Positions 19,437-31,633 of a stretch of DNA of 36,491 nt are shown one piece after another. Position 1 is the stretch's first letter. Every line of letters starts with the position of its first letter. A program made the translations under genes and the position numbers. The stretch comes from a virus. Its lineage: Duplodnaviria > Caudoviricetes. Where the stretch lies: positions 1 to 36,491 of IMG/VR virus record IMGVR_UViG_3300048998_000331. One strand, given 5' to 3'. The notes beneath the pieces were generated by a model. That model made no database searches. It saw only the letters and a program-made list of their open reading frames with translations, and was not told the DNA's origin.

Positions 19437-19598
19437 AGGGAGGCAGGCGAGCGGCCGAAAGCCCTGTTTCCGGGGCTGTTCTGGGCTCGGATTGGCTGCC
19501 TCCCCGCCTCCCTTACCCAGGGTTACCACAGGTGGGGCCGGGGGATGCGCTGCGGGGAGCCGCTTGGGGAGAACTCCCCGCCTCCCCGCAGCCTCCCC
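19437..19598. repeat. Cluster of GGGGAGGC-like 8-mers directly after traB (candidate clt)
   Basis: GCCTCCCC at 19498, 19580, 19591; GCCTCCCT 19506; AACTCCCC 19572; inverted AGGGAGGC 19437, GGGGAGCC 19554, GGGGAGAA 19566. Confidence 0.6.
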
Positions 19599-21758
19599 CT
19601 ACTCGACGGCTTCCTCGTCGCGCTCGGCGAGGGCTTCCAGCACGCGGTCGCGGGCGATGGTCGAGACGCCGTGGGACTTGTACGGCTGCGCCCCGTAGGG
19701 CTCCAGAGCGGCCGTCAGGTCGTTGAAGCTCCAGTCCCGGTAGGCGGCCGGGTTGAGCGCGGCGAGGCGGTGCAGCACCTCCTGGGAACGCACCCGCGGG
19801 TCAGCGCCGAGGACCGCGGCGATGTCGGCGAGGTGGTCGGCGGGTGCGGCCGGGTCCGTCACGGGTGCGGCGGCCGGCGTCTGCCCGTTGCGTAGGGCCA
19901 TGGCTCGCTGGACGACGGGGGTCACCTGGTCTGTGCCCGACTCCTTGCGGACGTAGTAGGAGCGGATCAGCTCGAACGGCTTCTTCACGAAGCCCACGGT
20001 CAGCGCGGTGCCGACATCCTCGGCCGGGTTGAGGTTGGTCGCGGTGATGCCCGCCTTGTGCTTGCCCGTGCCCAAGAGGCCGTCGTTGGCGACGTGGTCG
20101 CCGACCGCGAACGCCACCCGGTTGGAGGTGTTGCGGGTGACGTCCTTCGGGATGCTGTCGGCGGTCGGGGAGACCGTCACCCAGATGATGGTGATGCCCA
20201 CCTTGCGGGCCTTCTTCATCGCCTTGATGGCCAGTTCCTCGGCCTCGGCCTTGTACTTCTTGTGCATGAACAACTCATGGCACTCGTCGTACACCACGAT
20301 CTTGGGGCGCATCCGCGGGTCCCGCTCGGCCAGTTCCCGGGTGAGTTTGGTGTCTTCGCCGCCCAGCGACTCCAGCAGCTTGCCGCGCAGGGTCACGTCG
20401 TCGACCAGGTCCCGCAGCGATTCGAGGGCGGCCTCGATCTGCTCGTCCTCGTCGCCCTTCACCAGAGCCTTCAGGCGGGGCTTCATCGGGTCGTAATCAA
20501 CGTTGTACGCCATGACGTACACCTCGATCTCGACCAGCGGATCGAGCATCGCGCCCAGCAGCAGGCTCACGACCAGCGAGGACTTACCCGAACCCATGAT
20601 GCCGCCGATCATGTAGTTGCAGGCCATGAGCTTGCCGAACACCGGCTCCCCGCGCTGCGATACACCCACCGGCACGCCCTTGAAGTAGTCGGCGGTGCCG
20701 TCGGTGAGCAGCGGCCACGGCGGGACCGGACCGGACAGCGACCCCTGGTCAGCGACCCACAGGTCCATGACGCTGGGCTGGTCGCGGGGCTGGGTGGGCC
20801 ACACCTCGACGGGAAGCCGGGTGAGGTTGTGGGCGAGTACGGGCTTCTTGCCGTTGACCATTTCGACGGTGACGCCGAGGGGCAGCTGCAGCTGGCTGTG
20901 CCAGCCGTTGCCGAGGCGGGTTGTAGGGGACATCCAGCGGGGCTGCCAGCCGTCCTTGAACGCCTTGTTCAGCGCGGGGATGCCCAGGTGGCGCAGGGCG
21001 TCGAGGATGGCGCCCTCGTCGGGGACGACGGCCCGCTTGTCCCGCTCGGCTTCGGGTAGCGCCCACTGGGGTGCGGCCTGCCCACGGCGACCGGTGTTCC
21101 ACAGACCGAGGAACGCCAGCCACGGCGCGAGGAACACCGCGGGGCCCCACACGATGCTAACGATGACGACGGCCCACCGAATCGCGTCGATGGTGAACAT
21201 GACGGGTGCGATGACCTGCGTCGGGTCCTTCTCGGCGATGGCCATGATGACGCCCAAACCGAGCAGTCCACCAGCCGTGGCCGCCGTGCCGACCGCGGCA
21301 CCCTTGGCGATCTGCAGCGGCGCCTTCAACAGGTCCATGCGGCGCTGGTGGCGCTGCTGCCGGAACGTGGCGGCGCGCTGCTCCCATTCGAGGGCCACCT
21401 CGTGCTGACCCGCGGCCTCGGCGGAGCGCATCATCCGCTCGTGCCGGGCGACCGTGCGGCCGTCCCAAGCGCGCTTGGTGACGATGCGGGTGCCACCGAC
21501 GACGTAGGCGCCGTGACGGACCGCCAGGCGGCCGGCGGTACGGGTCCGGTCGTGGGTGGCGATGACGCGCGCCCGCCGGGCTGACCTGATCAGCAGGTGC
21601 CGTCGAACGGGCTGGTCAGCGGCAGGGGTCCGGGCTGGTGCGGACCCTTTCTCGCCGTCTGCCGGCGCCGGGTCCTTGAGGAGGCTGACGGGTTCGGGCC
21701 GGTGGTCGTCGAGGCGGTGGAGCGTGCCCACGTCGGGCTCCGTCGCGGTATCGGTCAT
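19599..21758 (-). CDS. traB: TraB-like FtsK/SpoIIIE DNA translocase
   Basis: 719 aa: N-terminal TM helices, Walker A GGIMGSGKS, Walker B IVVYDECHEL, KARKVGI, RVAFAVGD; Pro/Ala linker and C-terminal helical (wHTH-like) domain; GGAG RBS. Confidence 0.85.
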   Translation of the reverse strand: MTDTATEPDVGTLHRLDDHRPEPVSLLKDPAPADGEKGSAPARTPAADQPVRRHLLIRSARRARVIATHDRTRTAGRLAVRHGAYVVGGTRIVTKRAWDGRTVARHERMMRSAEAAGQHEVALEWEQRAATFRQQRHQRRMDLLKAPLQIAKGAAVGTAATAGGLLGLGVIMAIAEKDPTQVIAPVMFTIDAIRWAVVIVSIVWGPAVFLAPWLAFLGLWNTGRRGQAAPQWALPEAERDKRAVVPDEGAILDALRHLGIPALNKAFKDGWQPRWMSPTTRLGNGWHSQLQLPLGVTVEMVNGKKPVLAHNLTRLPVEVWPTQPRDQPSVMDLWVADQGSLSGPVPPWPLLTDGTADYFKGVPVGVSQRGEPVFGKLMACNYMIGGIMGSGKSSLVVSLLLGAMLDPLVEIEVYVMAYNVDYDPMKPRLKALVKGDEDEQIEAALESLRDLVDDVTLRGKLLESLGGEDTKLTRELAERDPRMRPKIVVYDECHELFMHKKYKAEAEELAIKAMKKARKVGITIIWVTVSPTADSIPKDVTRNTSNRVAFAVGDHVANDGLLGTGKHKAGITATNLNPAEDVGTALTVGFVKKPFELIRSYYVRKESGTDQVTPVVQRAMALRNGQTPAAAPVTDPAAPADHLADIAAVLGADPRVRSQEVLHRLAALNPAAYRDWSFNDLTAALEPYGAQPYKSHGVSTIARDRVLEALAERDEEAVE

Positions 21759-21796
21759 GCTGGCGGTCTCCAGTGCTCGTCAGGGTGCTGCGAGGG

Positions 21797-21840
21797 CCCG
21801 CGGCGGCCGGCTTCCTTGGCCGGGTGACGGCCGCCGCGGG
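21797..21840. terminator. Strong stem-loop upstream of traB (terminator/attenuator or processing site)
   Basis: Perfect 13-bp arms CCCGCGGCGGCCG / CGGCCGCCGCGGG. Confidence 0.5.
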
Positions 21841-21846
21841 GTGTAG

Positions 21847-22065
21847 CTACAGGGGCAGGGGCTTGGAGCGGCAGGTGCCCGCGTGCTCGTTGGCCTTGCC
21901 GCGGGCGTAGGGGATGCCCGTGTGGATGCTGTCCAGGCCGCAGCCGAGGCAGTTCCAGCTCCCGCGGCGCATACGGTCGGGGTCCGGGGTCTCGATCAGG
22001 GCGACGGTCGCGCCGCCGAGGGTGGCGAACACGGCGATGGTGCCCTTGGGCAGGGTCTCGGTCAT
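21847..22065 (-). CDS. Small Zn-finger protein
   Basis: WNCLGC...ANEHAGTC (CxxC...HxxxC); AGGAG RBS. Confidence 0.7.
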   Translation of the reverse strand: MTETLPKGTIAVFATLGGATVALIETPDPDRMRRGSWNCLGCGLDSIHTGIPYARGKANEHAGTCRSKPLPL

Positions 22066-22068
22066 GGG

Positions 22069-22251
22069 TTATTTCTCCTGTTCAGCCCGGGTGCGGGCCT
22101 TGTTGAGGATGGCGTCGAACTTCTTTTGCAGGTCCGCCAGGTCAACGGCCTCGCCCGCGAGGCCGCGCTTGGCCATCCGGGCCGTCAGCCAGGCGAGCCG
22201 GGTGGTCTCGCCGGCGGTCAGCGGCGGGTCGGAGTCGGTGAGGCGGATCAC
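22069..22251 (-). CDS. Small hypothetical protein (DUF6257-like)
   Basis: GTG overlapping the upstream stop; AWLTARMAKRGLA...DLADLQKKFDAI resembles small proteins of Streptomyces mobile elements (family from memory). Confidence 0.6.
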   Translation of the reverse strand: MIRLTDSDPPLTAGETTRLAWLTARMAKRGLAGEAVDLADLQKKFDAILNKARTRAEQEK

Positions 22252-22415
22252 TGGCCGGTCCCCTCCTGGAGAAGCTGGCCGGCGGCCTGGACGGCGGCGG
22301 GGCCTTCGTCCATCAGCAGGTTGTCCATGGCGAGGCGGGCCTCGTCGGTGCTGCCGCCGTGCGTGATGGCGATGCCGACGATTTCCTTGGCGATCTGGTC
22401 GGTGGTGCGAGCCAT
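22248..22415 (-). CDS. 55-aa hypothetical protein (not in ORF track)
   Basis: GAGAGGAG RBS; MARTTDQIAKEIVGIAITHGG...; TGA overlaps the next GTG. Confidence 0.65.
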   Translation of the reverse strand: MARTTDQIAKEIVGIAITHGGSTDEARLAMDNLLMDEGPAAVQAAGQLLQEGTGQ

Positions 22416-22464
22416 GACGGGCTCCTCTCGGTTTTGGGCCGACTGGTACCGGCCCCACCGCGCC

Positions 22465-22491
22465 CACTCACTTCCCGCGAGGAAGTGAGTG
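22465..22491. repeat. Perfect 11-bp inverted repeat CACTCACTTCC-N5-GGAAGTGAGTG
   Basis: Intergenic, read directly from sequence. Confidence 0.8.
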
Positions 22492-22506
22492 AGACGGAAG
22501 GGCAGG

Positions 22507-22818
22507 TCAGCGGCGGCGGATGTCCTTGTAGATCCCGTAGACGACCAGCGCGACCAGGGCCACGGATACGGCGGCGATGGCCAGGGCGACCGCAGCGAAC
22601 GCCACGGTGACCATGAACATCGAGCCCGCGATCCCGATCCCGATCCACTTGCCGGCCTCGCCCGCCCGCTGCTGCGGTACGGGCGCCGGGGGCGGTACGG
22701 GCTGCTGGAGTTGCTGCACGATCGCGGCGGTCTGCAACGCGGCGAGGACCGCGGCGTAGGTCTCGCCCTGCCGGGCGGCGTCGATGGCGTCCTGCGACGC
22801 CTTGCCCAGGTCGGTCAC
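22507..22818 (-). CDS. SpdD-like small membrane protein
   Basis: Pro/Gln linker, long hydrophobic hairpin (WIGIGIAGSMFMVTVAFAAVALAIAAVSVALVALVV), basic tail; coupled to upstream gene. Confidence 0.6.
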   Translation of the reverse strand: MTDLGKASQDAIDAARQGETYAAVLAALQTAAIVQQLQQPVPPPAPVPQQRAGEAGKWIGIGIAGSMFMVTVAFAAVALAIAAVSVALVALVVYGIYKDIRRR

Positions 22819-24007
22819 GGCAGGTACCTCTTCAGCTCGTTCTGGATGCGGGTGGCCCGGTCCTGGCCGATGGAGTAGCGGCCCCGCAGATCGCGGATGG
22901 ACGGCACGCGGTCATCGATCAGGAGGTGGAGGTAGTCGTTGCGGGCGCGGGCGGTGAAGGTGTCCTCACCGGGCGGCGGGGGGCTGTCGTCGTCGGGCTC
23001 GGGTACGTACTCGACCCGCACCTCAGGGCGGGTACGCGGCTGCTCGGAGGCGAGTACGCCGGCCGATACGGCGCCCACCGAAGCCGCCGCCGGGGACAGT
23101 TCCGAGTCGGGCCCGGGTACGCCCGCGAGGATCTGCGGGTACGCCTCGGCGTGTACCTCGGGTACGGGCTGCGGGGCGGGTACGCGCTCCACGGTGACCG
23201 CGGAAGCGACCGGTTCGGGCTGCTGCTCCCACGGTGCGGTGAGCGCCATCGAGGCGAGCGAGCCCGCGCCCCGGTACGCCGCGATCCGGTCCAGGAGTAC
23301 GGCCCGCTGGGCTTCGAGTACGCCCGCGTCGGTGCGGTCCACGGCCACCGCGAGGCGGTGGCGGGCGCGGCTGAGACGGTACGGGCGGGCCTTGGCCGTT
23401 TCCAGGTCGGCGAGGGTTGCGGCCCGGCGGGTGGCGATGCGGGTCCACCGGTCGCGGGTGATCTGGGCAGCGTCCCGGCCCCGCACGGCCAGGCCGAGGC
23501 GGGACAGCAGGCGCTCGCGCAGCTCCCTGACCAGGATCGCGGGCAGCGATTGGGAGTCGGCGCCGGGCTTGGTATGGCGCAGTTCGATACCCATGGCCAG
23601 GTGCCACAGCAGCGCGGCGCAGACCGGCCCGAAGAACGCCCGGACCGTACCCGCGACCGGGCCGGTCTCCGAGTACGCCGGGATGACCTGTACTGCGGTC
23701 ACCACCCAGACGAGTACGCCGGGCGTACCCGGGGCGCCCAGAACACGGAGGTTCTGGCGGGCCATCATCGCCATCGCGAACAGCGCCACCTCGGCGGCGG
23801 CGAACATGACGACCCGCTCGGTGCCGCTGGCCATCCCGAGGTGGTCACGGGCGAACCGCCACGAAGTGTCACCGGAGTACGCGGTGCACAACAAGGCGGC
23901 AGCAGCGGCCACGACGACCGCGGCGGGGGTGCGGCGTACCGCTCGGAGTACGAGGGCCAGTACGCACCCGAGTACGGCGAGTACACCGGCCAGGTACACC
24001 GGGGTAC
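22677..24007 (+). repeat. Dispersed, polarised (G)RGTACG repeats inside spd-like genes
   Basis: Hand count of 26 GTAC cores in 23003-24007, of which 18 are RGTACG on + and 4 inverted; two more at 22677 and 22695. Confidence 0.85.
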
Positions 24008-24038
24008 GCGCCAGCTCGGCGAGGGTGGGCAGGTTCAT
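22815..24038 (-). CDS. SpdB2/DUF2637-like multi-TM spread protein with C-terminal winged helix
   Basis: ATG at 24038 after GGAG; about 5 TM segments, Arg-rich helical region, Pro-rich linker, then PSIRDLRGRYSIGQDRATRIQNEL. Confidence 0.7.
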   Translation of the reverse strand: MNLPTLAELARTPVYLAGVLAVLGCVLALVLRAVRRTPAAVVVAAAAALLCTAYSGDTSWRFARDHLGMASGTERVVMFAAAEVALFAMAMMARQNLRVLGAPGTPGVLVWVVTAVQVIPAYSETGPVAGTVRAFFGPVCAALLWHLAMGIELRHTKPGADSQSLPAILVRELRERLLSRLGLAVRGRDAAQITRDRWTRIATRRAATLADLETAKARPYRLSRARHRLAVAVDRTDAGVLEAQRAVLLDRIAAYRGAGSLASMALTAPWEQQPEPVASAVTVERVPAPQPVPEVHAEAYPQILAGVPGPDSELSPAAASVGAVSAGVLASEQPRTRPEVRVEYVPEPDDDSPPPPGEDTFTARARNDYLHLLIDDRVPSIRDLRGRYSIGQDRATRIQNELKRYLP

Positions 24039-24303: not shown

Positions 24304-24467
24304 CGGGTCTCCTCGTCGGCGGTGTGCGCGGCGTCCTCGTACAGGCCCCGGGTGAGGTCCTGCTGCCATGCCAGATCGGCGGCGGCAGGCGGGGGGTCTG
24401 CGGCGGCGGTGTGTGCGGTGATGGCGTCAGCGCGGGCCTGGAGCGCGGCAGCGATACGGCCGGTCAC
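24300..24467 (-). CDS. 55-aa hypothetical protein (not in ORF track)
   Basis: GTGA and ATGA coupling on both sides; MTGRIAAALQARADAIT...EETR. Confidence 0.55.
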   Translation of the reverse strand: MTGRIAAALQARADAITAHTAAADPPPAAADLAWQQDLTRGLYEDAAHTADEETR

Positions 24468-24868
24468 AGCGCACCGCCGCGGGTCTCGGAGGCCAGCCGG
24501 CGGGCTACCAGGCGGACGCGCCCGGCAGCCTCCAGCAGGTCGGCAACCAGCCCTTCCAGGCCGGCCACGTCGAAGTCGAAGTGGTCACCATCGAGCAGGT
24601 GCGCGACGACGTAGACCTCAGCGCCGTGGGCGTAGGTCGGCTTGGGGAAGGCGTCCTGCCAGAGCAGCAGTTCGAGCAGCCGGCGCGGGCCCCGCTCGGT
24701 GCCGACCATGATGTCGATGGACGGCCCGGTGTGGGCGATCTCCGACGCCAGCGGGCGGTGTACGAGATCGTCGGGGAAGTCGTGGGCGGTCCCGGTGCAC
24801 CACGCGGGCTCGGGGATGCTGACGATCCCGAGGTCGGAGGTGGCGACGGTCACGGTTCGCTCGGTCAT
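24464..24868 (-). CDS. Hypothetical protein (DUF6907-like)
   Basis: PEPAWCTGTAH...H motif and LEGLVADL...ARRL helix; family from memory. Confidence 0.6.
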   Translation of the reverse strand: MTERTVTVATSDLGIVSIPEPAWCTGTAHDFPDDLVHRPLASEIAHTGPSIDIMVGTERGPRRLLELLLWQDAFPKPTYAHGAEVYVVAHLLDGDHFDFDVAGLEGLVADLLEAAGRVRLVARRLASETRGGAL

Positions 24869-25200
24869 CGCTGCTCACCCCCGGCGGGCTCGTCGGCGTC
24901 CTGCCACACCGGGTACGTGACGGGGTGACGGTCGATGCCGTCGCGGACGGTCTGGGCCAGGACGCTCCAGCTGGGGCTGCCGTCCATCTTCACGGCGACC
25001 TCAGCGGCCAGGAGGACGGATCGGGCGCGCCGGTGGGTGAGCAGCCGCATCTGCTCGTACCCGTCGGGCGTGCCGAGTTCGGGGAACGGCACGTCGAGGG
25101 CATCGCGGATCGCGGCGAGCAGGGTGAGGACGTCGCTGGACAACGTGGACGCGGCCGGCTGGCTGTCCTTCGCGGCGGCGTCGGTGGTGGGCTCGGTCAT
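24865..25200 (-). CDS. Hypothetical protein
   Basis: ATG at 25200 overlapping upstream stop; LLAAIRDALDVP. Confidence 0.65.
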   Translation of the reverse strand: MTEPTTDAAAKDSQPAASTLSSDVLTLLAAIRDALDVPFPELGTPDGYEQMRLLTHRRARSVLLAAEVAVKMDGSPSWSVLAQTVRDGIDRHPVTYPVWQDADEPAGGEQR

Positions 25201-25604
25201 CGGGCACCGCCGATCCGGGCGGTACGGAACCCGGTGTTGACGACGTCGTACGTACCCGACGCGGCCGGCGTGAGGTTGCGGTTGGCGAAGGACCAGTGGC
25301 CGGTGTCGGCGGGCACCTCGCGGGTGTTGCGCATGACGCGGTACCAGTGGCCGACGGACTGCCTGGCCATGACGTGGAGCAGGCCGCCGAGGTCGCGGGC
25401 CATGTCGGTGCGGTTCCGGATGCGGAACAGCTCCAGGAAGACGTTCTGCGTGAGGTCGTCGGCGAGGTCGTGGTCGCGGCGGCCGAGCTTGCCGAGGATG
25501 ACCCGGCGGACCATCGGCCGGTACTGGGTGTACGCCGCGGTGAACAGGTCGTCGGTGGTGGTCGGGCAGGTCGCAGGCGTGCCCGCGGGCATGGAAAGAT
25601 CCAT
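25197..25604 (-). CDS. Sigma70 region-2-only (ECF sigma-like) protein
   Basis: FTAAYTQYRPMVRRVI...LADDLTQNVFLELF...LLHVMARQSVGHWYR matches ECF sigma2; no sigma4; AGGAG RBS. Confidence 0.7.
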   Translation of the reverse strand: MDLSMPAGTPATCPTTTDDLFTAAYTQYRPMVRRVILGKLGRRDHDLADDLTQNVFLELFRIRNRTDMARDLGGLLHVMARQSVGHWYRVMRNTREVPADTGHWSFANRNLTPAASGTYDVVNTGFRTARIGGAR

Positions 25605-27643: not shown

Positions 27644-28255
27644 TCATCGACGGCCGCCGCGCATGGCGTCGGCGGCGTGGGCGAGCGCGACGTAGGCCAT
27701 GACCGTCGCGGTGGCCGACTTCTTGACCGCGGCCCGGTAGCAGCGCATGCACGGACGGCGGGGGTCGCCGGTGCGCTTGTGCGTGCAGTGCTGATCGACT
27801 CCGCGCCGGAGCTCGGCGAGAGTCTGGCTGGTCTCCTGAAGTTCCTCCGGCGTGGAGTAGGCGATATGGAGGCCGAGCTTGTCGGCCAACCTCTGACCAC
27901 CCGGGGTAAGGGGCGCCTTCACGCTCATCGGCTGCGGGCATTTGGCGGCCAGCTCGGCAAGGACCTGTGTGGACAAGCCGTGGCCACGGAACTCCGGCAC
28001 GACGTAGATCAGCTCGACGGAGTGGCGCCCCATGTCGGCGGCGAAGTACCCGGCGAAGTCGCCGCCCGCGCGCAGGACCATCGTCCGGAGCCAGCCGGCG
28101 GCCGGGACGCCGAGCGCGTGCTCGCCGGTGCGGGCCAGCTCTTCGAGCAGGTAGTCCTGGTGCATCCGGATCAGGGCCCGGACGTGCTCGGCCGAGTGCG
28201 GGTCGAACACCTCACCGGTGATGACCGGGGTGGCCTGGGTGTTGGTGGCGGTCAT
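27644..28255 (-). CDS. GNAT-family acetyltransferase-like protein with C-terminal Cys/His cluster
   Basis: Acetyl-CoA motif A IYVVPEFRGHGLSTQVL, GQRLADKLGL, then CTH...PCMRC; AAGGAG RBS. Confidence 0.7.
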   Translation of the reverse strand: MTATNTQATPVITGEVFDPHSAEHVRALIRMHQDYLLEELARTGEHALGVPAAGWLRTMVLRAGGDFAGYFAADMGRHSVELIYVVPEFRGHGLSTQVLAELAAKCPQPMSVKAPLTPGGQRLADKLGLHIAYSTPEELQETSQTLAELRRGVDQHCTHKRTGDPRRPCMRCYRAAVKKSATATVMAYVALAHAADAMRGGRR

Positions 28256-28831: not shown

Positions 28832-31633
28832 TCAGGCCGCGTAGGACTCGTCGGGCTCGTCCAGGGGCGCATCCCAGAGGCCATCGCCATCGGCGGGCGG
28901 TGGCGCGGGGGGTTCGGGCGCGGGGGACGCTGCTGCCTGGGGCGTTGCTTGGCCCGAAGTGTGTGCGTCACCCCCGTGGGTGTCTCCTGATGAGCCCTCT
29001 TCTTGGTCCACCTCCTCTCTTTTTTGGGGAGATGGGGTTTTAGAACCAACATCTCGTGCCATGGGCTGACCTTCGCTTTCGTTTTCGCGCTCGGCGCGGA
29101 CCTGGGCCTTGAGCACACGCATGACGAGGTCGCTCTCGTCGCCCAGTGCCCACGGCTTGGCGCTGGGGAAAGCCGAGTCCTCGGACTGCTCCTCCTCGTC
29201 GCCGAGGAGGCAATGAGTCAGCTCAACGACCTCCATCTCTTCCAGCGCCCGGCGCGCTACGTGCCGGTGAAGACCGGTGCGCCGCCGGATCTCGGAGACT
29301 GTCAGCGGCTCCCCGTTGGCCAGTTGGTACAGGCACGCGAGACGGGCCTGCGGAACGGTGTCCAGGGCGGCCCGTCCGGCGAGTACCAGCGCCTGCCGCC
29401 GGGGCACGCCGATGGCGAGCAGCGACTTGGCGAGGGCGACGACCTGGCCGGTGATGCGGGCCGGTTCTTCGACGATCGGGATGCCGTCGATCTCCCGCTT
29501 GCCGTAGGCGTTGCGGGGGACGGCGGCCCGGCCGAGACAGGTGAGCATCGCGGCATCTTCGAGCTGGTCGTACATGTCGTCGTCGAGTTCGACGTCGCGC
29601 ACGCGCCGCCGTGCCGCCTGCACGAGAGCGGTGGCCCGCCGCTTGGCTTCGGTCTGGAGGTCGTCCAGGCCGGCGATGGTGCGCCGTTTGCGGACGGTGG
29701 CCTTTTTGTGGGCGTTGTCGGTTTCCGGCAGGCGGTAGTACAGCCAGCGCGGGCCGAGGGCGTCGGCGTGGGAGGAGAAGTTATCGATGGCCGGGGTGAC
29801 GGCCGCCAGCAGGGTAAGGCGACCGGTCCAGGTGAGGGGGCGGGGTGAGTTGCCGACTTCGCGGACCACGTGCCCGTCGTAGGCGCGGCGTAGCAGGGCG
29901 AAGAGGGTGTCACGGCCGCCGCGGTCGGAGGTGGCGAGGACTGTGGAGAAGTCGCTGATGGTGACGAATGCGCGGCTGGGGATGCGAGTCAGGATGCCGG
30001 CGGGCCGCGGGTTCTTGCCGGGCATCCACGAGAGCAGGGCGGGGCCGGTGATGTCGTCGACGTGCTCGTCGGCGATGGTGTCTAGGCACTTGATCGCTTC
30101 GGTCTTGCCGCCGGACGGCGGGCCGACGATCATGCCCCAGAGCGGGTCTCCGTCCAGTTCGGAGGACACAGCCACGGCGAGGGCGAACATGATGTGTCCG
30201 TCGTCGGTGAGGTGGACGTAAGTCTTGAGCTGATCGAGGAAGGCTTGCCGCAGGGTGGCGATCGGGTCGGTCGGCTCTTCGGGCCCGTCCTGGTCCGGTT
30301 GAGCCTCCTCCTTGGGCGGTTCCTCCTCCTTCGACTTCATGCCTGCGTCCAGCAGTGCCTGGCGTGCTGCGGCCTGGTCCTCGGGCGTGAGCAGGTCTTC
30401 GAACCCGCTCCGGTTGCTTGGCCCACTCGCAGCGCGGACCGCCTCCAGCACGGCGGCGGGAAGTGCGCGGGCTGCTGACGTCGCATCGAGACGGTCGTGG
30501 GCAGCGCGCAGGATGTCCTTGGCCGCTTCGGATTCGTCTCCCCGGTGGTGGAGCGCGGCGAAGAGCTGCCCGGGAGACAGGACGCGACCGACCGACCCCG
30601 GGTCGAATCCGGGGAAGTTGTCGGTGCGCACGGTGATCGCGGCACCGCCCTTGTGGACGGCGATGCCATCGATCGAATTGCCTACAGCCCAGCCGGGCCG
30701 GTTCCACCGCTGACAGTCGGGGCCGCAGTACGAGCAGTTGCCGGGGTGCTGCTCGCTGTATGTGGCGCCGGCGAACGCGATGATCTCGCCAGCGCATTCG
30801 TGCTCGCCGAGGATCTGGAACGGGCCGACACCCGAGTGAATCGGCGTACCGCCGGACGTCTTGCTGCCGGGCTTGGCAGCCGACTTGGGCGCGGCGGCCT
30901 TCCTCGGCTTCGGCTTCGGCTTGAGGTCGGTGGCCAGCTGCAGCATTTCGTCCAGCGTGTACCGCGGGCCGCCATCCTCGACGACACGGCACATGGTGGG
31001 TACGCGGCCGGGCTTCCGGTTGATCGTCCAAGGCGCGCGCAGTACCCGTGCCAGGTCCTTGACGCCTGTTCCGTACCCTAGGCCCATGGACTTGGCGCCT
31101 TGCGCGAGGATGTTCTGCCAGTCCGCAGGGAGCATCACGGCCGCGTCGAAGTCGATGTCCTCGCCGATGACGATCGGCCGGTCGAATTCCCAAGAGACGT
31201 AGAGCCCGGCGCCGGAGTCCTCGACTCGCGTCGGCTCGGGCAGCTTCGCGAACCGCGGGATGTCGCGGGCTTCTCCGGCGGTCTCGGGCAGATCCGTGGC
31301 GCTGTGGAGCTTGTTGTCGTAGTCGATGTCGGACCACATGCCGACCAGGGCGCGGGAGTCGCGCGCGGTGCCTCGGCTTTTGCCGGGAAATCGCGAGGTG
31401 ACCGTGGTGACCCGGCAGTAGATCCCCTCAACTCCGGCCCGGTCTTCGGCCATGATCCAGTCGACGGCCTCATCAAGGTCGTCGGTCTGGATGCCGGTCC
31501 AGTTGCGGGTGGAGCAGATGGAGACCAGGCCGGGCGCCGCGAAGCGCGGGGTGAGCCATGACCGGATGGCGTCCGCGTCTGCCGTCAGCGGATCGGGGGT
31601 GTCGTTCACGAACGGTGGCTCATCTCTGTCCAT
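28832..31633 (-). CDS. Replication protein: RepB/AEP-type primase, Cys-rich linker, AAA+ helicase-like domain and winged helix
   Basis: [27 protein letters not shown] primase motifs; CSYCGPDC; Walker A GPPSGGKT; C-terminal [23 protein letters not shown]. Confidence 0.8.

What the first reader, a model, noticed from the sequence alone, without database searches (positions are those of the whole stretch)
22815..24038. Membrane spread protein ending in an FtsK-gamma-like winged helix
Seen: multi-TM N-terminus, long Pro-rich linker and terminal PSIRDLRGRYSIGQDRATRIQNEL. Established: the KOPS-reading FtsK gamma domain has the pattern S....QR...IGYNRAARI. Inference: this looks like an FtsK layout without the motor, i.e. 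a membrane tether that reads a sequence. It may bind the GTAC repeats in its own gene and deliver phage DNA to TraB or septal pores, splitting recognition and pumping over two proteins.
Basis: partly seen in the sequence, partly recalled or inferred. Interest (0 to 1): 0.75.

Follow-up and report, generated by a model that had tools for sequence, protein, structure and literature searches.

The report
Self-addressed membrane anchor for phage DNA
A prophage membrane protein's own gene is packed with a short DNA word that changes whenever the protein's helix-turn-helix tail changes, so the protein likely grips its own element's DNA and would anchor it to the membrane of filamentous soil bacteria.

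Summary
The 407-aa gene is real: five hydrophobic segments, a Pro-rich linker and a three-helix tail most like FtsK-gamma helices 1-3, but with no wing. It is a remote SpdB2/DUF2637-type spread protein in a near-complete temperate phage that also carries traB. The tail is a swappable module: 129 loci share the membrane core but end in about ten unrelated tails, and a repeated DNA word inside the gene switches with the tail. Here the word is GRGTAC, kept at silent sites (27 GTAC against 5.4 expected), in all frames and both orientations. On other membrane cores one helix-2 residue predicts the word in 26 of 29 genes. The word does not follow TraB. TraB has its own clt-like array just downstream, and only 3-4 of 34 near-complete phages with this gene have a TraB/FtsK motor. 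The 'recognition for TraB' split is therefore not supported. Best reading: the tail binds an array in its own gene and tethers element DNA to the membrane. Binding is inferred, not shown; pSVH1 SpdB2 was reported to bind DNA non-specifically. pJV1, pSN22 and phiC31 genes show such arrays too, so the idea can be tested in existing systems.

The parts
22815..24038 (-). SpdB2/DUF2637-type membrane protein gene, 407 aa
   Evidence: (1494 relatives among 7992 scored)
23580..23993 (-). membrane domain, residues 16-153, five hydrophobic segments
   Evidence: nearest named ESM Atlas clusters carry DUF2637
23250..23546 (-). conserved helical domain, residues 165-263, likely cytoplasmic
   Evidence: pLDDT 90-97 over 191-250; conserved in alignment A3
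22965..23234 (-). Pro/Val/Glu-rich low-confidence linker, residues 269-358
22827..22961 (-). wingless three-helix HTH, residues 360-404, most like FtsK-gamma helices 1-3; I381, R385 and Q392 are the residues that track the DNA word
22824..24007 (.). intragenic array of 27 GTAC, 19 of them GRGTAC (consensus about SGRGTACGS on the + strand; 16 in one orientation, 3 inverted; all three frames); predicted binding sites of the tail
22507..22818 (-). 103-aa gene with a C-terminal hydrophobic segment, overlapping the stop codon by 4 bases; likely accessory spread protein
   Evidence: relatives in 17 of 129 loci, window included
19599..21758 (-). TraB/FtsK-SpoIIIE-like translocase gene, 719 aa
   Evidence: Pfam FtsK_SpoIIIE E 7.9e-5, below cut-off; PHROG 1358 E 2e-18
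19437..19597 (.). clt-like array directly downstream of traB (GCCTCCC x5, both orientations); its word tracks the TraB C-terminal type

Best explanation
This is a remote SpdB2/DUF2637-type membrane protein whose gene holds an array of the word GRGTAC that tracks its swappable helix-turn-helix tail, and the tail likely binds that array and would tether the element's DNA to the membrane. Shown: the architecture, the array, its upkeep at silent sites, and its covariation with the tail rather than with TraB. Inferred: (1) the tail binds the word on double-stranded DNA; (2) several tails of a membrane oligomer on long linkers would hold a dense, irregularly spaced array by avidity, much as a centromere is held; (3) gene and sites form one portable cassette, so each tail type would address only its own element; (4) the tether would keep excised phage or element DNA at cross-walls or tips for spread or retention within the mycelium, without needing the element's own TraB. 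Where TraB is present it likely loads separately at its clt.
For: Silent-site selection in this gene: Val is GTA in 15 of 20 cases before C, 1 of 22 otherwise, and 6 of 110 before C in 11 other phage genes; GTAC 17 against 3.0 expected in residues 1-270, outside the linker. Tail class by motif table is diagonal in tails (3-19 own-word copies per gene) and, for classes 0a and 0b, in the shared core (2.64 vs 0.50; 2.08 vs 0.68), above synonymous expectation (103 vs 23.5; 27 vs 7.7). Excess of any 6-mer over synonymous expectation (LLR >= 8): 73 of 126 genes vs 2 of 161 control pieces, both of which were traB starts beside 0a genes carrying the 0a word. New genes with the same tail on other cores: K/R at helix 2 gives TAC > TGC in 19 of 22, Q in 0 of 7; Q392-to-P and Q392-to-H tails carry other words (5 and 3 genes). 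The word spills into the neighbouring traB gene: mean 7.0 (10 loci) vs 2.1 (25 loci). Positive control: the same approach recovers TraB-type-specific clt-like arrays. Motor absent in 30-31 of 34 near-complete virus records. Precedents: SpdA2 binds a palindrome in its own coding region and affects stability (PMC4170104, passages); SpdB2 is oligomeric, pore-forming and needed for spreading (PMC4447253).
Against: No binding was measured. pSVH1 SpdB2 is reported to bind DNA non-specifically (PMC4447253, citing Tiffert 2007, not read); pSVH1 could not be fetched. Linker and HTH travel together, so much of the covariation can be shared descent; pairs independent on the trees go the right way but are too few (4.2 same, 0 opposite of 7, p 0.125; 3.2 same, 0.2 opposite of 8, p 0.25). 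Classes 2, 3, 4, 6, 7 and 9 give 0 of 43 genes over the LLR bar, and pIJ101 spdB and the pRVR2 gene show no array. Class 1 and 4 cores show no excess. The window's own traB holds only 1 GRGTAC. On other cores the word sits mostly in the linker. Nothing here tests localisation or spreading.
Confidence: 0.58

Rival explanations
1. Autoregulation: the tail binds the intragenic sites as a roadblock to limit expression of a toxic pore-forming protein and of traB downstream; membrane attachment is incidental.
For: Same covariation evidence as the best explanation; sites cluster at the 5' end of traB in several loci; SpdB2 forms pores and unregulated traB is toxic (PMC4447253).
Against: No enrichment upstream of the gene (0.6-1.9 per kb vs 26 per kb in the linker for class 0a); no single fixed spacing or dyad; density peaks at the 3' end of the gene.
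Confidence: 0.14
2. Neutral repeats: the words are slippage-expanded coding units (Val-Pro, Gly-Thr) in a disordered linker that hitchhike with the tail and are bound by nothing.
For: Most copies lie in the linker and in the frame that reads Val-Pro/Leu (279 of 501 in class 0a tails); class 2 tails are close to their amino-acid expectation (76 vs 64.7); tree-independent tests are not significant.
Against: Both orientations and all frames; excess in the membrane-coding part and in a separate gene; only one tested linker of 11 on other cores aligns with the window's over more than 20 residues, yet they keep the word.
Confidence: 0.12
3. DNA-gated pore: the tail senses its word on incoming or replicating related elements and opens the membrane oligomer, slowing growth (pocks) or excluding superinfecting relatives.
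For: SpdB2 forms pores and is needed for pocks (PMC4447253); another pJV1 spread protein family, SpdB3, is the membrane effector of Pycsar defence (10.64898/2026.08.12.744502, passages); rapid tail swapping (at least 8 changes of class 0a forced by well-supported branches) fits conflict.
Against: The sites are on the protein's own gene, so a resident copy would trigger itself; spdB2 deletion abolishes spreading rather than immunity (PMC4447253). No defence-library scan was run.
Confidence: 0.09
4. One reading: the protein supplies sequence recognition for TraB, which pumps; or the array is TraB's own loading site.
For: traB lies 1 kb downstream in the window; pSVH1 SpdB2 interacts with TraB (PMC4447253); the word enters traB genes in some loci.
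Against: TraB relative within 10 kb in 39 of 129 loci and in 3 of 34 near-complete virus records; tail class is unclustered on the TraB tree (8 changes, shuffled mean 8.9); each TraB type has its own downstream array; class 1 sits beside a relaxase instead (4 of 5 loci scanned).
Confidence: 0.07

Closest known systems
SpdB2 of pSVH1 / pJV1 (DUF2637, PF10935; SpdB_N PF27080; HTH_SpdB_C PF27079)
   Same: Membrane N-terminus, helical middle, low-complexity linker, place in a spd-traB module, homologues known in phages (PMC4447253). Nearest named Atlas clusters carry DUF2637; the same tail sits on true DUF2637 cores; this core can carry PF27079. The second gene of pJV1's spdB operon also ends in an HTH-like segment and has an intragenic word (16 vs 2.5).
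   Different: No Pfam DUF2637 hit (0 of 62, 0 of 66); profile vs pJV1 protein E 0.23; an extra N-terminal hydrophobic segment; SpdB2 is described as a non-specific DNA binder working with TraB.
FtsK gamma domain and KOPS
   Same: Helices 1-3 align; the Arg matching E. coli R1300 is kept (R397); short word read at the end of a long linker from a membrane anchor.
   Different: No wing, no motor, no FtsK membrane domain; E1303 and E1306 positions are N400 and K403; no GGGNAGGG (consensus recalled) in the gene; host-family FtsK gamma scores only about 10 bits on the tail profile.
SpdA2/sps of pIJ101
   Same: DNA-binding protein whose sites lie in its own coding region; stability role (PMC4170104, passages).
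   Different: SpdA2 is small with no membrane domain described in the passages read, and reads one conserved 12-bp palindrome in 2-3 copies; here 10-25 short words, a membrane anchor and many interchangeable specificities.
TraB/clt of Streptomyces plasmids and AICEs
   Same: C-terminal helix-turn-helix reading short repeats on its own element (PMC4447253, PMC3583192); the window carries such a pair.
   Different: TraB is an ATP-driven pump with an intergenic array; this protein has no motor and its array is intragenic and independent of TraB type.

Membership tests
FtsK gamma domain (PF09397) | score above the Pfam cut-off | tested here: not met
   14.4 bits vs 30.6; 16 of 49 relatives hit weakly, best E 7.6e-4
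FtsK gamma domain (PF09397) | three-helix HTH core with the IG..RA.RI recognition helix | tested here: met
   model pLDDT 93; Z 5.4/5.3, rmsd 2.2-2.3 over 45-47 residues, tied with GntR at 5.1; PDB profile E 0.025
FtsK gamma domain (PF09397) | beta-hairpin wing after helix 3 | tested here: not met
   no strands in either model; chain ends at residue 407
FtsK gamma domain (PF09397) | attached to an FtsK ATPase motor | tested here: not met
   no ATPase domain in the 407-aa protein
FtsK gamma domain (PF09397) | sequence-specific DNA binding | not testable with these tools
   only covariation
SpdB2 / DUF2637 | Pfam DUF2637 match of the membrane core | tested here: not met
   0 of 62 core sequences, 0 of 66 distant relatives
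SpdB2 / DUF2637 | remote likeness of the membrane core to DUF2637/SpdB | tested here: inconclusive
   Atlas feature scores 0.94, 0.92, 0.91 to clusters with DUF2637 on 15-32% of members, 197-212 shared features; hhalign to pJV1 and pIJ101 proteins E 0.23 and 0.15
SpdB2 / DUF2637 | about four membrane helices, helical middle, low-complexity linker | tested here: met
SpdB2 / DUF2637 | encoded on a mobile element in a spd-traB module | tested here: met
   window; traB nearby in 39 of 129 loci
SpdB2 / DUF2637 | oligomeric pore, TraB contact, needed for pocks | not testable with these tools
   needs bench work
clt (TraB loading site), for the GTAC array | repeat word tracks the TraB C-terminal domain | tested here: not met
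   GRGTAC genes occur with three TraB types and without TraB; other arrays track TraB
clt (TraB loading site), for 19437-19597 | short repeats next to the 3' end of traB that track TraB type | tested here: met
   [GC]CCTCCC 6.4 per 300 bp in 7 loci of the window's TraB type, 0-0.2 in four other types, 3 in one singleton; same placement as the pWTY27 clt (PMC3583192, passages)

The most novel reading that the evidence does not exclude
SpdB2-type proteins are a motor-less partition system for mycelial bacteria: a membrane anchor that carries its own centromere written into silent and linker codons of its gene, with interchangeable helix-turn-helix tails giving each phage, AICE, plasmid or mobilisable element a private address and a readable residue-to-base code. 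Temperate phages would use it to hold and spread their DNA through hyphae without virions, and this phage, with traB and clt as well, would also conjugate.
Probability: 0.35. Interest if true: 0.88.

Novelty: new variant of a known kind. Interest (0 to 1): 0.72.

Why it matters
How Spd proteins spread DNA through Streptomyces mycelium has been open for decades, and SpdB2 is described as a non-specific DNA binder. A tail-matched array gives specific, cheap predictions for systems already in laboratories (GTGAGC for pJV1 and pSN22, TGAGC for phiC31 gp25, GRGTAC here). It would explain why phages without any transfer motor keep such a gene, point to an overlooked cis element in Streptomyces vectors, and supply a natural series of small HTH domains paired with their target words.

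Tried and rejected
Foldseek of the full-length model found nothing at E <= 0.001; phmmer of the last 61 aa against PDB found nothing. PHROGs has no family for the protein. No cultured phage in the INPHARED copy matched this protein, two relatives or the window's TraB. Atlas search of the TraB C-terminus gave one unnamed cluster at 0.81, so its fold was not established. Homo-tetramer prediction of the core gave no answer (0.35, mark 0.42). The careful core tree did not finish; the quick tree was used. A first residue-versus-word table was mis-anchored for some rows (part 1) and was redone on the profile alignment. No sigma-70-type promoter match near the gene. No RNA holder listed. No earlier scan findings. 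KOPS-like GGGNAGGG as the target: 0 in the gene. Fixed-spacing operator: no single spacing dominates. Host FtsK as recent donor of the tail: about 10 bits only. The 22 strongest DUF2637 genes examined mostly lack arrays (20 of 22 with LLR < 4), so the array is not a property of all DUF2637 proteins.

Full report
Setting. The window is one IMG/VR provirus record, 99% complete by CheckV, with integrase, repressor-like HTH, primase, terminase, portal, capsid, tail tube, tape measure and endolysin genes. Named relatives of the gene are from Streptomyces and Actinacidiphila, so the host is likely of that family. Between replication and packaging genes lies a module of the 407-aa gene (22815-24038, minus), an overlapping 103-aa hydrophobic gene, three small ORFs and a 719-aa FtsK/SpoIIIE-like traB.

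The protein. It has five hydrophobic segments and a 90-residue linker with 19 Pro. AlphaFold gives a helical core, a low-confidence linker and a confident helical tail at 360-404 with no strands. The tail's nearest matches are FtsK-gamma by Pfam (E 0.032, below cut-off; 16 of 49 relatives), by profile against PDB (2j5p E 0.025; the top row was a repeat protein summing eight 2.4-bit pieces), by Foldseek (probability 0.75, TM 0.65, E 2) and by VIA-align (Z 5.4 and 5.3, GntR 5.1). It is therefore a wingless HTH most like gamma helices 1-3, not a gamma domain by the family's test. Of the KOPS-reading residues R1300, E1303 and E1306 (PMC2680272, passages), placed by their spacing on the alignment, only the Arg is kept. 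The core has no Pfam family and only E 0.15-0.23 to plasmid Spd proteins, but its nearest named Atlas clusters carry DUF2637 and SpdB_N, the same core carries HTH_SpdB_C in two relatives, and the same tail sits on true DUF2637 cores (5 of 19 scanned pass the cut-off, 4 of them with the IGQ tail). I file it as a remote SpdB2/DUF2637-type protein.

The tail is swapped. The tools returned the best 80 of 485 genome loci and 58 viral loci. With the window, and after dropping 10 (5 with N, 4 duplicates, 1 truncated), 129 remained; their last 70 residues fall into 17 clusters, ten with two or more members. Pfam names some tails (HTH_17, HTH_24, HTH_38). On a quick tree of the core the classes need 28 changes, and well-supported branches force at least 8 for the window's class.

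The array. GTAC is confined to this gene (25 in one kilobase, 0-8 elsewhere). Val is GTA in 15 of 20 cases before C, 1 of 22 otherwise, and 6 of 110 before C in 11 other phage genes; synonymous resampling gives 5.4 GTAC against 27 seen, and 3.0 against 17 in residues 1-270. The 19 GRGTAC sites fall in all frames, 16 in one orientation and 3 inverted. In relatives the repeated word changes with the tail: GRGTAC (0a, 39 genes), GCATCC/GCACTC (0b, 13), GGGACC (21), GTGACS (15), GGACGC (13), GTGAAC (9), CGGAAC (4), TGAGCC (2), CCGACA (2). The words were taken from these tails, so the 113 of 118 agreement is partly circular, and 0a/0b was split by word. The non-circular tests follow. (a) Shared core: own word 2.64 vs 0.50 (0a) and 2.08 vs 0.68 (0b), above synonymous expectation for these two classes but not for classes 1 and 4. 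(b) Controls: 73 of 126 genes vs 2 of 161 control pieces pass LLR 8; classes 2, 3, 4, 6, 7 and 9 give 0 of 43. (c) Residues: helix 2 ends in K/R in 39 of 39 0a and Q in 13 of 13 0b genes. A search of 251 genomes of the family found the tail in 43; 56 of the 58 matches were fetched and 8 dropped as duplicates or fragments. On cores the A3 profile does not detect, K/R gave TAC > TGC in 19 of 22 and Q in 0 of 7 (Fisher p 8e-5, relatedness not corrected); Q392-to-Pro tails carry GATCGG (5 genes) and Q392-to-His tails GGGAGC (3 genes). There the word is mostly in the linker (GTA before C 78 of 120 vs 12 of 79 in the membrane part). (d) Spill-over: full-length traB genes beside 0a-type genes hold 7.0 GRGTAC (10 loci) vs 2.1 (25 loci), p 0.0003, although the window's own traB holds 1; tree-independent pairs go 4.2 the same way and 0 the other of 7, p 0.125.

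Not TraB's site. A TraB relative lies within 10 kb in 39 of 129 loci. Four of five class-1 loci scanned have a relaxase downstream instead. Where traB is present, a separate array lies within 300 bp of its stop and follows TraB's C-terminal type: CTAGC (18 loci), CGAAAC (8), [GC]CCTCCC (7, window included), CACTGCC (3), CTCTAC (2). This is where the pWTY27 clt lies (PMC3583192, passages) and serves as a positive control for the method. Tail class is unclustered on the TraB tree. The two words are thus dissociated.

Known systems. The second spdB-operon gene of pJV1 (label recalled; relatives annotated DUF2637) has GTGAGC 16 times vs 2.5, and phiC31 gp25 (my identification as the phage SpdB2-like gene) has CTGAGC 9 vs 1.7; pSN22, an S. 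subrutilus plasmid and phage RemusLoopin repeat these words, pWTY27 has another, and pIJ101 spdB and the pRVR2 gene show none. gp25 shares a 'PAT' helix and the TGAGC word with class 8.

Mechanism. Shown: architecture, array, silent-site upkeep, covariation with the tail, independence from TraB. Inferred: the tail binds the word; a membrane oligomer (known for SpdB2, PMC4447253) would hold the array by avidity, as single gamma domains bind weakly and three bind one KOPS (PMC3384302, passages); the cassette would tether excised element DNA for spread or retention in hyphae. A stabilising effect of spdB2 on SLP2 is mentioned in PMC4170104 (passage). I put binding at about 0.75 and the whole tether reading at 0.58. 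Rivals are autoregulation, neutral linker repeats, a DNA-gated pore and the TraB split.

Literature. Seen: PMC4447253 (abstract, first sixth, section 13, passages); passages of PMC4170104, PMC2440964, PMC3218068, PMC2680272, PMC3384302, PMC3583192, PMC9239103 and 10.64898/2026.08.12.744502. Ten searches showed no paper describing tail-matched arrays in spdB2-type genes. Tiffert 2007, Vogelmann 2011, Servin-Gonzalez 1995 and Hsu and Chen 2010 were not read and may mention repeats in spdB2; no supplements were opened. SpdB2 homologues in phages, a SpdB C-terminal HTH (Pfam PF27079) and intragenic sites for SpdA2 and RepAM are already known.

Verdict. A new variant of a known kind: ordinary as a gene family, but with an apparently undescribed and testable self-addressing code. 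Interest 0.72.

Noticed in passing
window 19437-24038 within the prophage: A near-complete temperate siphophage carries a full plasmid-type transfer module (traB, clt-like array, spd-like genes); no cultured phage in the INPHARED copy has a relative of this TraB, while 5 of 50 related virus records do.
   Followed up: partly
300 bp downstream of traB in 39 loci (e.g. L007, L012, L020, L024, L037): Five TraB C-terminal types each pair with their own clt-like word (CTAGC, CGAAAC, SCCTCCC, CACTGCC, CTCTAC), a ready set of predicted TraB targets.
   Followed up: partly
L141:666-1781, L230:5361-6444, L232:1409-2428, L139:6292-7008, L233:3956-4756: Plasmid and phiC31-group SpdB2-like genes end in HTH-like segments and hold intragenic GTGAGC or TGAGC arrays; the pSN22 gene is split into two ORFs in the record.
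   Followed up: yes
L030, L060, L070, L079 (class 1): The same core with another tail sits upstream of a MobA/VirD2-type relaxase, with WhiB upstream in three, i.e. on integrative mobilisable elements without TraB.
   Followed up: partly
L024:7547-8824; P0036, P0062: Tandem tails: the gamma-like HTH followed by a second, different helical domain; L024 keeps the GRGTAC array. Possible swap intermediates.
   Followed up: no
L006 and L017: Close relatives of the window's core with a different tail (HTH_SpdB_C type); core GTAC counts 2 and 7, as if the old array were decaying after a swap.
   Followed up: no
L182, L185, L188, L189: GRGTAC continues into the 800 bp downstream of the gene (8, 6, 5, 5 copies).
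   Followed up: no
L143-L172: All 151 genomes searched have DUF2637 matches; 20 of the 22 strongest examined lack an intragenic array, while two with a 'SP.TASEY' helix carry TCGGCA.
   Followed up: partly
window 28832-31633: 933-aa primase/polymerase-like replication protein with a C-terminal MarR-type HTH.
   Followed up: no
window 27644-28255: GNAT-like acetyltransferase gene among the early genes.
   Followed up: no
window 25197-25604 and 24464-24868: A sigma-factor-like 135-aa ORF (by eye only) and a DUF6907 gene upstream of the module; DUF6907 relatives recur in 23 of 129 loci.
   Followed up: no
L231:10642-12034: Plasmid pWTY27 carries a phage capsid gene next to its spd-tra module, another phage-plasmid mosaic (noted in PMC3583192).
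   Followed up: no
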